Assembly: GCF_006345805.1 (NCBI RefSeq)
Contig: NW_021832432.1
Location: forward strand, 704,377 to 768,376
Source of the DNA: Octopus sinensis
Taxonomy: Eukaryota
Length of the DNA stretch: 64,000 nt
Reading direction: 5' to 3'
The notes under the pieces are model-generated. The model ran no database searches. It saw nothing but the letters and a program-made list of their open reading frames with translations, and was not told where the DNA came from. Within the stretch, counting starts at the first letter, position 1, and each line of letters opens with the position of its first letter. Positions 11,609 to 62,803 of this stretch are shown in pieces. The position numbers and the translations under genes were made by a program.

Positions 11609-11706
<98 letters not shown>

Positions 11707-11719
11707 GTGTGTGTATATG

Positions 11720-11918
11720 TTTCTGTGTCTGTGTTTGTACCCCCAACATAGCTTGACAACCGATGCTGGTGTGTTTACGTCCCTGTAACTTAGCGATTCG
11801 GCAAAAGAGACCGATAGAATAAGTACTAGGCTTACAAAGAATAAGTCCTGGGGTCGATTTGCCCGACTAAAGGCGGTGCGCCATGCTGAAACAAGTAAAA
11901 GAGAAAAAGAGTAAAAGA
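11720..11918 (+). mobile_element. SINE-A 3' half
   Basis: 'cttgacaaccgatgctggtgtgtttacgtccc...gaccgatagaataagtactagg...ctgaaacaagtaaaagag' between (TA)n tracts. Confidence 0.9.
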
Positions 11919-11928
11919 TATATGTATG

Positions 11929-12012
<84 letters not shown>

Positions 12013-12227
12013 TATATAAAACAAATTTTATTGAAAAACAAATTTTATCCTACATTAGTTATAAATTTAATAGTGTTCACTTCTGGATTCTCTCACTCTG
12101 TGAAAGTTTCTAGATCGAATCACGCGTGTCTCGAGATGTGCTGAAGATTTTCTATTTTGGATATATTTTGGGTACTTAGGTCTGCTCAGGACTTAGTGCT
12201 TGCTTTTTCCATTTATGTCTTAAGTAT

Positions 12228-12288
12228 TTATCGCTGACGAGGGGAAAATTCTTATGAATTAACCCCGAAATTGGGACCAATACGGTAA
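12228..12288 (+). ncRNA. Type I hammerhead ribozyme motif
   Basis: Helix I ttatcg/cggtaa; core CTGACGA (12234-40); helix II GGGG-aa-aattc(ttat)gaatt-aa-CCCC; GAAA (12267-70); helix III attgg(ga)ccaat; cleavage triplet AUA ending at 12282. Confidence 0.85.
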
Positions 12289-12774
12289 TAACGGAATTTT
12301 AAAGAAATTTCTATCGGCATGATTCGAGACGCATAAATTATAATGGTTATTGACAATTTTGTCTTTTTTTCGGCATATTTGGCATTAGAATTTTTCTTTT
12401 GCCCTTATTCTATAAGTTGTTTATAAATTTAACCTTTAAAGGTATTTTTTGATATGCTGGCCATTGATTAAATTTTTTTTCGAAAAAAAATTTTATTCTA
12501 CATTAGTTATATATATATATATATATTATATATATTACCAGCAATTCAGTTCATTATCAAAGATAACATCAATTCAACCGGTAACATCGCTCTCAATGAG
12601 AAACGGGTCATGACATTAAACAATAGAGCTTCTTGCTCTTGTTTGATGAAGCTGCGGTCATCCCAGCTTAGTCGTTCCAGAGACGTCATTATGCATAGAG
12701 TCGACCAGATCCACTGGTGCTCTACATCACTAGCGGTCCCGTGGCAGCTCTTCTGCATCTAGACCCTCTTGGGT

Positions 12775-16615: not shown

Positions 16616-16646
<31 letters not shown>

Positions 16647-16647
16647 A

Positions 16648-16686
<39 letters not shown>

Positions 16687-16700
16687 TATATATATATATA
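15610..16700 (-). mobile_element. Non-autonomous Helitron-like element
   Basis: Minus-strand 3' end 'ccgggcaacgccggctatctctgCTAG|T' (GC hairpin + CTAG); internal recurrent 'aaatttcat' motifs; 5' end obscured by (TA)n/(TAGA)n. Confidence 0.6.
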
Positions 16701-16729
16701 GATAGATATAGATATAGATATAGATATAG

Positions 16730-16766
<37 letters not shown>

Positions 16767-16769
16767 TGT

Positions 16770-18598
16770 AGCCTGACCCATGATGTTGGTCTTCTTGAGG
16801 CTGATAAATAAGCCAAAGTTGCGACATGCTTGCTCAAAACAGATGATGAGCCTTTGTAGGGCTTCTTCTGTGTGTGATACCAGAGCGGCACCATCAGCAA
16901 ATAGCATCTCCTTGATCAGGACGCTTCTGATTTTGGTCTTGGCACGCAGACGCGAGAGATTGAACAGTTTCCCATCACTTCTACTGTGCAGAAACACTCC
17001 ATCATCTGATGTCACAAAGGCATGTGACAGCAGCAGCGAGAAGAAGATGCCAAATAATGTAGGAGCAAGGACACAACCTTGCTTTACCCCATTTTTTATT
17101 TGGAAGGCGGCTGATGTTGAACCATTGTGCTGTATGGTGCCTTGCATATCATCATGGAAAGATGTGATGATCCTCAGCAGCTTTGGTGGACATCCGATAT
17201 TTTGGATCAGGATGAAGAGGTCTTTTCTACTTACCAAGTCAAAGGCCTTTGTCAGATCAATGAAGGCCATATATAATGGCATTTTCTGCTCTCTGGACTT
17301 CTCCTGAAGTTGGCGTATGGAGAATATCATGTCAATAGTTGATCTGCTTCTTCTAAAGCCACACTGCGATTCTGGATAAATTCGAGAAGCAAGCAGTTGC
17401 AGCTTGGACAGGATAATGCGAGCAGAGGCCTTTCCAACAGTGCTTAGAAGAGATATTCCACGGTAATTGTTACAATCACCATAGTCACCTTTGTTTTTTT
17501 AAAGCGTAATGATGTTAGCATCCCGCATATCCCTATTCCCAGCACTGACACAGAAGCTCAGAAATTTGCCGAAGCAGGATGGTGTTTTTGCCGGTTTTGA
17601 TGATCTCTAAGGGGATGCCGTCTTTTCCCGGAGCCTTGTTACTTGCTAGGGAGTCAATAGCCTTGGTGAGCTCTGCTATAGATGGCAGACTGTCAAGTTC
17701 ACACATGACTGGCAAGATCTTGACACCCTCGATTGCAGCCTCAGCTACCGTGGACTCTCGTGAGTAGAGATCCTGGTAGTACTCCACCCATCTATCCATT
17801 TGCTTGCTTTGGTCCTTGATGAGATCTCCAGTAGTTGATTTCAGAGGGTCTGACTTGGTTGCGGATGGACCGAGGGCCTTCTTAAAACCGGCATACATCC
17901 CACGGGTGTCCCCACTGTCAGCAGCTGACTGGATACTCTGACAGTTTCCTGCCAATACTTATTTGCACAGCGTCTGACAGTCAGTTGGGTTTTATTTCTT
18001 GCCTTTCTGAGTTCTTCGAGTGACTTTATAGAAGAATCACTCTAGTATTACATCAGAGCTGCACGCTTTGTTTCGATAACTGTTTCCAGCTCTGAGAGCC
18101 CAGCACTGAAAAAAATCTGGGTTTTGCCTTTCTCTCATGCCGAAAGTATCTATTGATGTGGTATACAAAGCTTCCCTGATATAATTCCACCAACTTTCAG
18201 CAGAGGTGGTTGGGCAGCTACTGAGGGCAACTTTGATAGTAACAGCAAAACATTGTCGCAGTGTAGGGTCGGAGGTTCTGGCAGTGTTAATGCGTGGTTG
18301 GCCCATTTTCTTGGATTGATGGACTTTTTAGGCAGAATCCTCACCCTGCTTCTTATTAGTGAATGATCTGTGTCACAATCCGCGCTGTGGTAACTACGAG
18401 TCAGTTGAATAGAATTCAGAAAGGGTCTTCGTGTAATGATGAGATCCAGCTGATGCCAGTGGTGAGATCTTGGATATCTCCAAGATGCCTTGTGGGATGT
18501 CTTGTTGGCAAAGAATGTGTTAGTGATGCACAGGTTATGGTATGTGCAAAATTCAAGTAGTCTCTGGCCATTGTCATTTATGTTGTCAATACCAAAAC
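16770..18598 (-). pseudogene. RTE-clade LINE internal fragment (APE endonuclease C-half + RT), inactive
   Basis: 'NDNGQRLLEFC..HNLCITNTFF...SWRYPRSHHWHQLDLII...DCDTDHSL', 'KAPGKDGIP', 'AFIDLTKAFDLV', 'NGVKQGCVLAPTLFGIFF', catalytic motif degraded to LFADG; frameshifts and stops; both ends lost in microsatellites. Confidence 0.95.
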
Positions 18599-18698
18599 AC
18601 ATACACTTACATATATACATACATATATATATACGATCGATTTGTTTCAGTTCCTGTCTGCGAAATCCATATATATATATATATATCCATATATATAT

Positions 18699-18766
<68 letters not shown>

Positions 18767-19520
18767 TATATATATATACATACATACATATATGCATACA
18801 CACACATACATACATATATATTTGGAATTTACAAAAGAAACGAACAAAAGACGAAGACGGGTGTGTAAACAGCAAACAGGTTTATTAGTTTAACGCTCCG
18901 GACTTAGGAAAATTTATATAGAGAGTACTACTAATTTTAAAGTTAGATATAGGGGACACAAGAATTCATTTATTCACCCCTATATAAAAAATTACAGACA
19001 TTTTAGTATGTTGTAAGCATAAATATTTAGCGTCTTATCATTTTCTTAAACTTTAAAATATAATTTTTTAGAATATAAGAGCTTTTTGAAAATACGGTCC
19101 AATTAGATCATTAGATCCAATGAACACTTATGCACAAACCTGTAATCTTAAATTATTTTTTTATAGTAGAGAGTGGAATATTCCCATTAGCTATTATTTG
19201 CATGATTAACTAAAGTTAACCTTTCAATGAATTTCATTTCTTATTTAAACGTGGTAATCCTCTTGAAAATCTGTCACTTATTCATCGATACTCAAAAACC
19301 GAACTGTCACCAACTGAATACTCACCATGTAGTGCCTTAATGCTCTTTGCTGGATTTTACCTTGAGAAAGGAACCCTGAGGAAGGAGGGCTGAATTTCGA
19401 ATACTTCGTACAACCACTTTTCTGAAACGGCTGCAGGTTAGGAAAAAAATTTTAATCGCCTCTTTCAATTTAGGTTTTTATTTTTCATGTTTATATTCGT
19501 ATTTCACTGTTATGTTTATA

Positions 19521-21085: not shown

Positions 21086-22243
21086 TCAGGTCATCCCATA
21101 AGTTCTGTCCGAATTTTGGATAAAGAATCCAAGTAATCAAATGTTATATGTAATTGAAAGTTAATCATCAATGTACTTTCCCTGATTATCTATGACTTTC
21201 TTCCATCTATTTACAAGCTTTTTAATCCCATCAATGTTAAACTCTTTTGCTTTCAAAGCGAAGAACTCTGAAACGTCAGTTTCGACTTCCTCCTGGCTTG
21301 CGAAAGTTATGCTTCCCAAATGATTCTGTAAATTACAAAACAAATGGTAGTCTAAAGGAGCAAGGTTGGGAGAATTATGTGGATGAGGAATTTTTTCCCA
21401 ACCAAGCCCTTCTATCTTCTGTGATGTGATCTTTGCAGTGTGGGGTCGCGCATTGTCCTGATGAAACATCACTTCTTTTCGATTCACTAAAGCGGGTCTT
21501 TTTTCTTCAAAGCTTGGTTCAAACGCGCTAATCGCTGACAGTAGACATAAGCAATGATTGTGGCATTAGGTGGTAACAATTCAAAGTGAATTACTCCTTT
21601 ACAATCCTACCAGATAGAGAAAAGAACCTTTTTTCCATGAAGTTCCCTGCTCGGTTGTGGTTGAGCTTTTTCCCTTTTACCAAGCCACTGTTTACGACGT
21701 TTAACATTTTGATAAAAGATCCAAGTTTCGTCACCAGTCACAAGTTGTTGAAGATAACGATGAAAAGTTGTATGGTTTGAACTAAGCTTTATTGCCAATT
21801 CTTCAACTGATAATGCAGGATTTTCTTCAAGTAATGCCCCAAGGAGCTTATTATCAAACTCGACTGGACGTCCTGTTCGATCTTCATCTTCGAGTCTGAA
21901 ATCTCCACTTCTGAAATTTGCAAACCATCTGCAAGTTCTTTCATTCAAGCATTCTTTCCTATAAACTGAGTATATGTTTCGAGTCGCTTCGGCAACAGAG
22001 TTCCTTTTTTTGTACTCATAAAGCATTATGAGCCTCAAATTCTCTGTGGATACTTCTATGTTAGAAAGGGTTTTAATCAAAGAAATTTTAATTCTATTAT
22101 TCTGTAAAATGATATTTAATTAGTTTAAATGTACACAAATGCATAAAAATAATTTTAAATTCCATTAGATATTCTAAAATACTATTAAATTTCATTCAGT
22201 TTCAAAAAAGGTAAAATCGGGCAGAACTTATGGGATGACCTGA
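21086..22243 (-). mobile_element. Near full-length mariner (DD34D) transposon with decayed transposase
   Basis: TIRs TCAGGTCATCCCATAAGTTCTG.CCGA / TCGG.CAGAACTTATGGGATGACCTGA|TA; ORFs 21607-22080 (HTH, VTGDETW) and 21161-21487 (FHQDNARPH, HPHNSPNLAPLDYHLF). Confidence 0.95.
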
Positions 22244-23930: not shown

Positions 23931-25309
23931 CATCGTCACTCTGCACGCACGATGGTAACATGCTCTTATAAGAATACATTACTATAGTCCACTCTGCATT
24001 GCTGTACCATTCCAGACACGTTATATTTCATATATATATATGTATGTGTGTGTGTGTAGAGAGAGAGAGAGAGGGAGAGGGAGAGGGAGAGGAAGAGGGA
24101 GAGAGAGAGAGAGTCATGCACAAGCTCTGACTCATGTGTATACTATATGAAAACTGAAAAGCCAATCGTACTTCTAATAACGGCGTCACCTCTACAAATC
24201 TACAACCTTCTTTATTAGCAACTAAAAATGAGGCTTCTGTGTCACTATGACGCAAATCTTTCCCTCCTTAAACGCAGTATTTCTGAAATTTCCTCTTTGC
24301 ATATGTCTTTTCTGCAGACTAGCTTTGAAATGTTTAACAGAAACGTTAACCTTATCAATCTCACAGTTCATGGAGAGTTTGCAAAGACAATGGCCACTGT
24401 ACGTTCTTGTAGACTATATCAATGAAAAAATTATAAAATAGGTCGCAACATTTGGAAAATATTTTTCATTTAGCAATTAAATAATTCGAATACATATAAA
24501 ATTTTTGTTTTTAATATGAAACTCTTCTCGTGAAAACGCTAAGCTGTAACAATTTGTTCTATTTTTGTATGTTCGTATCTCACGGGGATATTTTAGTTAA
24601 TAATCCAAATGTAGTGTCATGTTCTTTCAAACTCTAGATATATTTGGATAGTTTTGTTATTATTTTTTCCTTTATATCTCAAAAAGAAAAGTATGTTTGA
24701 AACAGCGTAGTTAAATTTATCTTTCAAGTATCTTTGTAATGTTTGCACTTGATATTAAGTTTTAGTTTGATGGAGATCTTTTGTGCTTTATGTATAATCA
24801 TTTCAGCATTACATGAGTGATTAAGGGGGCGTCAATTTGTATTTCTGAACAGTTAACTTACATTAATTTATCTGGTTTACATGCTATAAATTTTTTTGTT
24901 AGAAGTACAACCGTAACCCTCTTTGAAATTTTTTCTATTAAATAGTTTTCTATATCGGTAGTTGGCAGGTAAATAGTTACTTATTAAATCTAAGAAGCTT
25001 TCAGCTAGATGTGACTTAACGAAAAACAAGATGTAAATCAGCTGATATTGTGGCATCTTTCTTAGTTTGGGAATGTGGGGTTTAGGAATATATATATCAT
25101 CGTTGAATCCAGTATCTTCTAGCATTTTATTGTAATACGAAGCCACCATATCAAATATTTCTTTATTGGCTGATAGGTTGGAGATCATTCTGATAATATC
25201 AATAGGTTTTTGAAACCTGTAGGTGGATGGCAGGTGTGTATATTTATATATAAACTTGTCATTAAATTGCCTGTGGTTCAGGCTAACAACTAAAAAAAAC
25301 ATATGATAC

Positions 25310-25501
25310 TTAATGCTTTAAATCCGCGAGTACGCTTTAGCGGGAGCGATTTCGTTTCGCTATACTCCTGGAAGACTCACAAGCGGGCGGCCTCATAGAT
25401 TTATGTTAAAGGCTCTGTAATTGACAGAAACATCGTTATTTTCAGGTGTAGTCAAACAAAATCGCGCTCGTTAAAGTATACTTACGAGTTCAAAGGGTTA
25501 A
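25310..25501. mobile_element. piggyBac-type MITE with TTAA duplication
   Basis: TTAA at 25310 and 25498; right end ...AAAGGG|TTAA; ~55 bp imperfect TIRs; it splits the Penelope RT segment. Confidence 0.7.
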
Positions 25502-62589: not shown

Positions 62590-62632
62590 ACCTTAATCGA
62601 TTTTCGACCCTTGTTGGAGTCTCATCAGAGGT
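62590..62632 (-). ncRNA. Type I hammerhead ribozyme motif, fully canonical core
   Basis: ACCT-CTGATGA-GACTC(CAACAA)GGGTC-GAAA-ATCGAT-T-A-AGGT; palindromic helix III AATCGATT. Confidence 0.85.
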
Positions 62633-62803
62633 GTACATCATTTGACCAATCCTAGAGAAATAAGTAACTAATGCGTTTATATGCATACCAAATCTTGTAG
62701 CTTCAGAGAACTGGTGCCACTAATTTAACGCTCACACACACACACAAGCACACACATTTGTCTATCTATCAATTAATCAATCAATCAATCTATCCATCTA
62801 TCC

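What the first reader, a model, noticed from the sequence alone, without database searches (positions are those of the whole stretch)
12008..12511. ~450 bp terminally redundant non-coding unit with an intact hammerhead (retrozyme-like monomer)
Seen: bounded by (TA)n on both sides; 'aattttat(c/t)ctacattagttata' repeats at 12041 and 12489 (period 448); a well-formed type I hammerhead sits at 12228-12288; long-range complementarity tcgaatcacgc (~12116) / gcatgattcga (~12317); no ORF of note. Established: metazoan non-LTR retrozymes are few-hundred-nt repeats with type I hammerheads that produce circular RNAs. Inference: a 1.05-mer insertion copied from a circular or tandem RNA, or a solo Penelope pLTR.
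Basis: partly seen in the sequence, partly recalled or inferred. Interest (0 to 1): 0.72.

Follow-up and report, generated by a model that had tools for sequence, protein, structure and literature searches.

The report
Hammerhead retrozyme copy, Penelope-style insertion
This is one slightly damaged copy of a scattered, protein-free repeat that carries a predicted self-cutting RNA motif and that is likely pasted into TA runs by the enzyme of Penelope-type jumping genes, a known kind of element whose insertion ends here hint at how that enzyme would copy it.

Summary
Observation confirmed, with corrections. Window 12023-12507 is a ~1.08-unit copy of a dispersed non-coding family (units 465-483 nt; this copy is 448 because of a private 21-nt deletion) with 876 exact hammerhead-core matches genome-wide, control 0. 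The type I hammerhead shows two-sided changes in all three stems between subfamilies; its weak stem III predicts cleavage as a dimer. Insertions look Penelope-made: variable 5' ends, partial tandems, inversions, 3' ends in TA runs (115 of 131). There are two fixed 3' ends ~90 nt apart; all 37 two-armed insertions ending at fixed sites use one of each. No sampled copy is the terminal repeat of an ORF-bearing element and no coding partner was found. 5' ends do not pile up at the cleavage site, so the template is likely longer than one unit (circle or tandem RNA). Circular RNA and cleavage are untested. Verdict: new member of a known kind (metazoan non-LTR retrozyme, non-autonomous Penelope-like element). 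The scan already reported the same architecture for other hammerhead repeats in this genome.

The parts
11918..12007 (.). (TA)n target microsatellite, left flank
12008..12027 (-). probable vestigial inverted arm ending at the family's 3' end A
   Evidence: 17 of 20 matches to 12413-12432 on the other strand, best site in the unit, shuffle P 0.005; short and AT-rich
12023..12507 (+). sense arm, about 1.08 units, ends at the family's 3' end B
12041..12488 (+). one 448-nt unit (family 465-483 nt; 21-nt private deletion after 12210)
12126..12334 (+). predicted long-range helix (12126-12153 with about 12306-12334) that encloses the hammerhead
   Evidence: MFE; covariation of this helix not counted
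12228..12288 (+). type I hammerhead motif; predicted cut after 12282; palindromic stem III predicted to need a dimer
12410..12432 (+). 3' end A of the family (internal in this copy)
12420..12507 (+). about 90-nt 'tail' between end A and end B
12508..12536 (.). (TA)n target microsatellite, right flank

Best explanation
The stretch is one copy of a dispersed, non-coding hammerhead repeat family that is likely mobilised in trans by the reverse transcriptase and GIY-YIG endonuclease of Penelope-like elements. Shown: family, copy number floor, conserved and covarying hammerhead, two fixed 3' ends in TA runs, variable 5' ends, laps longer than one unit, head-to-head arms with one end of each kind, and intact RT-GIY-YIG ORFs elsewhere in the genome. 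Inferred: tandem copies are transcribed; two hammerheads pair through their palindromic stem III and cut out a unit-length RNA, which is probably closed into a circle; the borrowed enzyme nicks (TA)n on both strands, primes once at end B and once at end A on the same RNA (both ends lie just 5' of a shared TATAAATTTAA-like motif), runs for a variable distance, often more than one lap, and the two cDNAs are joined head to head. This window copy has one hammerhead, a deletion and a vestigial second arm, so it is likely a dead end.
For: 876 exact core matches, reversed-pattern control 0; 697 exact matches of a tail pattern; 40 of 2919 candidates scored gave 80 matches at 82-97% besides the window itself. 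In copies chosen by whole-unit similarity the core is more conserved than control columns in subfamily A (0.010 vs 0.063, P 0.0009). Two-sided changes in stem I (GC 24/AU 11), stem II (GC 21/AU 11; AU 21/GC 10) and stem III (UA 25/CG 9) among 36 distinct rows, 95.4% of cells paired vs 26-49% when slid. Stem III hairpin 0 kcal/mol, homodimer -8.9 to -13.9; dimer cleavage for such motifs is described in PMC4209133 (passages). In 82 position-ordered insertions: 115 of 131 outer 3' ends in TA-type runs; 50 two-armed, of which 37 end at fixed sites on both sides, all A+B, none AA or BB; both arms from the same subfamily group in 28 of 28 classifiable, arm-arm identity above the median of other copies in 27 of 28; 28 of 82 with an arm over 1.05 units, up to 2.62; 2 of 135 5' ends within 10 nt of the cut site, about 6 expected if uniform; lap-lap identity above the median of other copies in 16 of 16. 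ORFs of 775-883 aa with RVT_1 and GIY-YIG exist, and one such family also ends in TA at two sites about 42 nt apart (6 and 7 of 15 scorable copies). Craig et al. describe truncation, partial tandems, inversions, tail and TA targeting as Penelope hallmarks (PMC8557442, passages).
Against: No coding partner with homologous ends was found in 30 + 20 + 24 ORF-fragment loci (overlapping sets), out of 5029 GIY-YIG candidates of which 150 were scored. Core conservation was not significant in subfamily B (0.019 vs 0.045, P 0.15). Compensatory changes separate subfamilies, so they are a few events, and the aligned rows were picked by a hammerhead pattern. Lap-lap identity beat the best other copy in only 9 of 16 and arm-arm in 9 of 28; two 100% lap pairs may be later local duplications. 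Rfam did not recognise the motif. The tail (about 90 nt) is longer than the published 30-40 bp. The 2026 preprint found in vitro cleavage in only 1 of 9 retrozyme dimers tested. Only 3 of 82 insertions reach 2 full units.
Confidence: 0.78

Rival explanations
1. Same non-autonomous Penelope-mobilised element, but the template is an uncleaved linear tandem (read-through) transcript; no circle is involved and the ribozyme only trims transcripts or is kept for another step.
For: Laps over one unit and seamless passage through the cut site fit this as well as a circle; most arms are under 1.7 units (149 of 152); cleavage by dimeric metazoan motifs is often weak.
Against: Donors with three or more units would be needed for the 2.1-2.6-unit arms and none was seen among 82 insertions; the core is conserved in subfamily A; circles are documented for coral, mussel and axolotl retrozymes (PMC7229834, passages and discussion).
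Confidence: 0.3
2. The copies are 5'-truncated 3' ends (solo pseudo-LTRs) of an ORF-bearing Penelope element not captured in my samples.
For: Identical insertion style; only 150 of 5029 GIY-YIG candidates scored; one copy (L007) abuts a Penelope endonuclease fragment.
Against: Arms run from one unit directly into the next with no ORF between (28 of 82 over 1.05 units), so the repeating unit itself is about 470 nt; tblastn with three to five Penelope-locus proteins found no ORF in terminal-repeat position; the family abutting L007 has its own unrelated 3' end.
Confidence: 0.08
3. A DNA-level repeat (MITE, satellite or recombination-spread) with a chance hammerhead-like motif.
For: Some copies have inverted arms; local duplications occur (L119, L225).
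Against: Strand-specific folding (sense z -2.9 to -5.3, antisense 0.0 to -3.3), polar fixed 3' ends with ragged 5' ends, asymmetric A+B arms 37 of 37, covariation.
Confidence: 0.02

Closest known systems
Metazoan non-LTR retrozymes (Cervera and de la Pena 2020, PMC7229834: passages and Discussion read; Li, Clavereau and Pollet, bioRxiv 10.64898/2026.07.22.740005: parts 1-3 of 5 read)
   Same: Few-hundred-nt, low-GC (32-35%), ORF-less unit with a type I hammerhead; monomers and short tandems dispersed over the genome; co-occurs with Penelope-like elements.
   Different: Mostly sub-dimer dispersed insertions rather than long arrays; unit slightly above the 150-450 bp range quoted; circular RNA and cleavage not shown here; the passages read do not describe the two-ended head-to-head insertion rule; no pLTR homologue found here, unlike 24 of 57 Xenopus families in the preprint.
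Endonuclease-bearing Penelope-like elements (Craig et al. 2021, PMC8557442, passages; Cervera and de la Pena 2014, PMC4209133, passages)
   Same: 5' truncation, partial tandems, inverted 5' copy, tail at one end only, (TA)n targets, hammerhead with palindromic stem III predicted to act as a dimer.
   Different: No RT or endonuclease ORF; tail about 90 nt instead of 30-40 bp; hammerhead is near-canonical rather than minimal.
Non-autonomous Chlamys elements such as MRC1 (PMC8557442, passage)
   Same: Non-autonomous Penelope-type elements with pseudo-LTRs and head-to-tail copies.
   Different: [quoted passage not shown]

Membership tests
type I hammerhead ribozyme | conserved core and three stems with open stem I | tested here: met
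type I hammerhead ribozyme | covariation in the stems | tested here: met
   two-sided changes in all three helices, few independent events
type I hammerhead ribozyme | match to an Rfam hammerhead model | tested here: not met
   no hit at gathering or E<=10
type I hammerhead ribozyme | loop 1-loop 2 tertiary contact | not tested
   not examined
type I hammerhead ribozyme | self-cleavage | not testable with these tools
   needs in vitro assay
metazoan non-LTR retrozyme | short, low-GC, non-coding unit with a type I hammerhead | tested here: met
   448-483 nt, GC 0.32-0.35, longest ATG ORF 27-63 aa
metazoan non-LTR retrozyme | tandem copies with a hammerhead in consecutive units | tested here: met
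   met by the family, not by this copy: same-strand core pairs 454, 497 and 498 nt apart among the first 100 listed of 876; arms of 2.1-2.6 units in 3 of 82 insertions
metazoan non-LTR retrozyme | no LTR, primer binding site or polypurine tract | not tested
   no tRNA-complement search run; ends are not LTR-like
metazoan non-LTR retrozyme | expressed as unit-length circular RNA | not testable with these tools
   only contigs of runs guessed to be RNA were available
Penelope-type insertion | 5' truncation, partial tandem, inversion, tail at one end, microsatellite target | tested here: met
   tail longer than published
autonomous Penelope-like element or its solo pLTR | RT plus GIY-YIG ORF attached to the repeat | tested here: not met
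autonomous Penelope-like element or its solo pLTR | sequence shared with the pLTR of a coding family | tested here: inconclusive
   none in sampled loci; most GIY-YIG candidates unscored

The most novel reading that the evidence does not exclude
Each two-armed insertion is the footprint of one Penelope enzyme complex priming twice, at two fixed sites marked by a duplicated motif, on a single ribozyme-made RNA circle; the family would then be a minimal, ORF-free substrate that explains the unexplained Penelope tail and inversion and lets the transposition cycle be rebuilt in vitro.
Probability: 0.3. Interest if true: 0.62.

Novelty: new member of a known kind. Interest (0 to 1): 0.36.

Why it matters
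As a family it adds one more animal retrozyme, which is modest. Its value is mechanistic: papers read here only propose that Penelope enzymes move retrozymes and call the tail and inversions unexplained; hundreds of copies with an exceptionless A+B arm rule, multi-lap arms and three covarying subfamilies give a small defined template to test both ideas. The same pattern has already been noted for other repeats of this genome by the scan, which lowers the value of this single copy.

Tried and rejected
Rfam scans found no hammerhead. Search for a coding partner: GIY-YIG family search, 20 wider loci, clustering into 11 groups including two SLX1-like host genes by my reading, and the family abutting L007: no shared terminal sequence; unit copies near ORFs in L065 and L075 are separate insertions bounded by TA or SINE sequence. 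A tail-pattern pair 1620 nt apart was a local duplication. Expression: no RNA holder listed on record; contigs of four runs guessed to be RNA cover the unit and some bridge the cut site, and three of them have no cover on most of the unique right flank; contigs cannot show level, strand, ends or circles, so this is not used either way. Short inverted stubs like the window's were not detected by a simple motif at the 5' junction of 16 one-armed B and 9 one-armed A insertions, though L174 shows one by eye and L003, L008, L011 do. Target-site duplication could not be judged inside TA runs. Rows dropped before counts: 7 duplicate loci (82 kept), later duplicate arms of L119, and 9 duplicate loci (51 kept); 10 of 25 loci had no anchor. 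One search failed on a script error and was rerun. Paper searches: octopus + hammerhead ribozyme gave 5 papers, none on such a family by listing; Penelope + pseudo-LTR + tail + inverted + non-autonomous gave 2 general reviews by listing; the library lacks most subscription papers. Supplements of the preprint are closed and were not seen; they may list related families. Sequence look-up in earlier findings returned nothing for this unit.

Full report
Observation. A 47-nt direct repeat with period 448 lies at 12023-12069 and 12471-12517 (83%), between TA runs. The hammerhead reads: stem I 12228-12233 with 12283-12288, core CTGACGA 12234-12240, stem II, GAAA, a five-pair palindromic stem III and an AUA triplet with the predicted cut after 12282. 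Rfam did not recognise it and the isolated MFE lacks stem III. The unit folds better than shuffles (z -4.1 linear; z -4.95 circular against -3.29 for the other strand). The longest ATG ORF is 27 aa.

The family. A DNA search gave 2919 candidates, 40 scored. A hammerhead pattern gave 876 exact matches with control 0, a tail pattern 697; both are floors. Three subfamilies differ in stem III and elsewhere (22 A, 33 B, 27 C among 82 position-ordered insertions), with units of 465-483 nt; A and B consensus lines agree at 394 of 458 columns. The window copy is type A with a private 21-nt deletion after 12210.

The ribozyme is under structural constraint. In 51 copies chosen by whole-unit similarity, not by the motif, core columns mismatch at 0.010 against 0.063 for control columns in A (P 0.0009) and 0.019 against 0.045 in B (P 0.15). 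On 36 distinct rows, 95.4% of cells pair, and two-sided changes occur in stem I, stem II and stem III. These mark subfamily splits, so they are few events, and those rows were pattern-selected. Stem III does not form alone but forms a homodimer of -8.9 to -13.9 kcal/mol, the arrangement that PMC4209133 describes for metazoan type I motifs acting as dimers (passages). A single-motif copy such as this one would therefore be predicted to cut poorly.

Insertion anatomy. Mapping 82 insertions on a four-unit reference shows two fixed 3' ends, A (window about 12420-12430) and B (about 12505), some 90 nt apart, and ragged 5' ends. 115 of 131 outer 3' ends run into TA-type microsatellites. Fifty insertions are two-armed, head to head; in 37 both outer ends are at a fixed site and all 37 are A+B (0 AA, 0 BB; binomial P 7e-12); 13 have at least one end elsewhere; 31 are one-armed and 1 unclassified. 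The two arms belong to the same subfamily group in 28 of 28 classifiable cases and are closer than the median of other copies in 27 of 28, closer than the best other in 9. 28 of 82 insertions have an arm over 1.05 units, the longest 2.62; only 2 of 135 5' ends lie within 10 nt of the cut site, so a linear monomer ending at the cut is not the usual template. Laps within an arm beat the median of other copies in 16 of 16 and the best other in 9 of 16. Both ends lie just 5' of a similar TATAAATTTAA-like motif. The window copy is a 1.08-unit B arm with a probable 19-nt inverted A stub at 12008-12027.

Who moves it. These features are those listed for Penelope-like elements by Craig et al. (PMC8557442, passages): 5' truncation, partial tandems, inverted copy, a tail at one end, TA targets. 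The genome has several families with RT followed by GIY-YIG, some with open frames of 775-883 aa; their CxxC linker suggests the Neptune clade (recalled label, no tree built). One such family also ends in TA at two sites about 42 nt apart. None sampled shares sequence with the unit, and no sampled copy of the unit serves as terminal repeat of an ORF. L007, where a unit abuts an endonuclease fragment, is a nested insertion or a chimera. The partner is therefore inferred, not identified.

Mechanism. Shown: anatomy, counts, covariation. Inferred: transcription of tandem copies, dimeric self-cleavage to a unit-length RNA, probable circularisation, target-primed reverse transcription by a Penelope enzyme from both nicks of a (TA)n site, one priming at A and one at B on the same RNA, and joining of the two cDNAs. 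The genomic data cannot separate a circle from an uncleaved tandem transcript; I put the circle at about 0.6 within the main reading. Sequencing runs offered only contigs and give no verdict on expression.

Comparison and novelty. It works like, and on the testable features belongs to, the metazoan non-LTR retrozymes (PMC7229834, passages and Discussion). The 2026 preprint 10.64898/2026.07.22.740005 (parts 1-3 of 5 read) already argues that these are non-autonomous Penelope derivatives, in vertebrates mainly, and saw cleavage in 1 of 9 dimers tested. My paper searches did not list a report of this family. Verdict: new member of a known kind, interest 0.36.

Noticed in passing
window about 62590-62640, minus strand: A second type I hammerhead-like motif found by the descriptor scan; weaker stems, unrelated to this family by eye.
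   Followed up: no
window 24877-25317, minus strand: 146-aa open stretch that by recall resembles the RT C-terminal part of Naiad-type Penelope elements; not searched.
   Followed up: no
window 16635-18881 and 21161-22119, minus strand: Fragments that by recall look like an RTE-type LINE reverse transcriptase and a mariner transposase.
   Followed up: no
window 11700-11915: Copy of a very abundant SINE-like repeat next to the left TA run.
   Followed up: no
L068:2250-2600: A different small unit between TA runs with its own type I hammerhead; 67% like this family over 55 nt just upstream of the core.
   Followed up: no
L065:1154-5933: Penelope-like element with a 479-aa upstream ORF before the 781-aa RT-GIY-YIG ORF, flanked by a 1153-nt 99% duplication that includes a subfamily B copy.
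   Followed up: partly
L142-L165, L045, L049 (3' regions): 3' regions of ORF-bearing Penelope families carry hammerhead-like motifs with altered first core bases, read by eye.
   Followed up: no
L007:1118-1500: Penelope endonuclease fragment joined through two short inverted stubs to a full unit; nested insertion or template-switch chimera.
   Followed up: partly
L086, L088-L091, L093: The same four-part insertion recurs in six loci, four on one contig within 0.6 Mb, pointing to segmental duplication.
   Followed up: no
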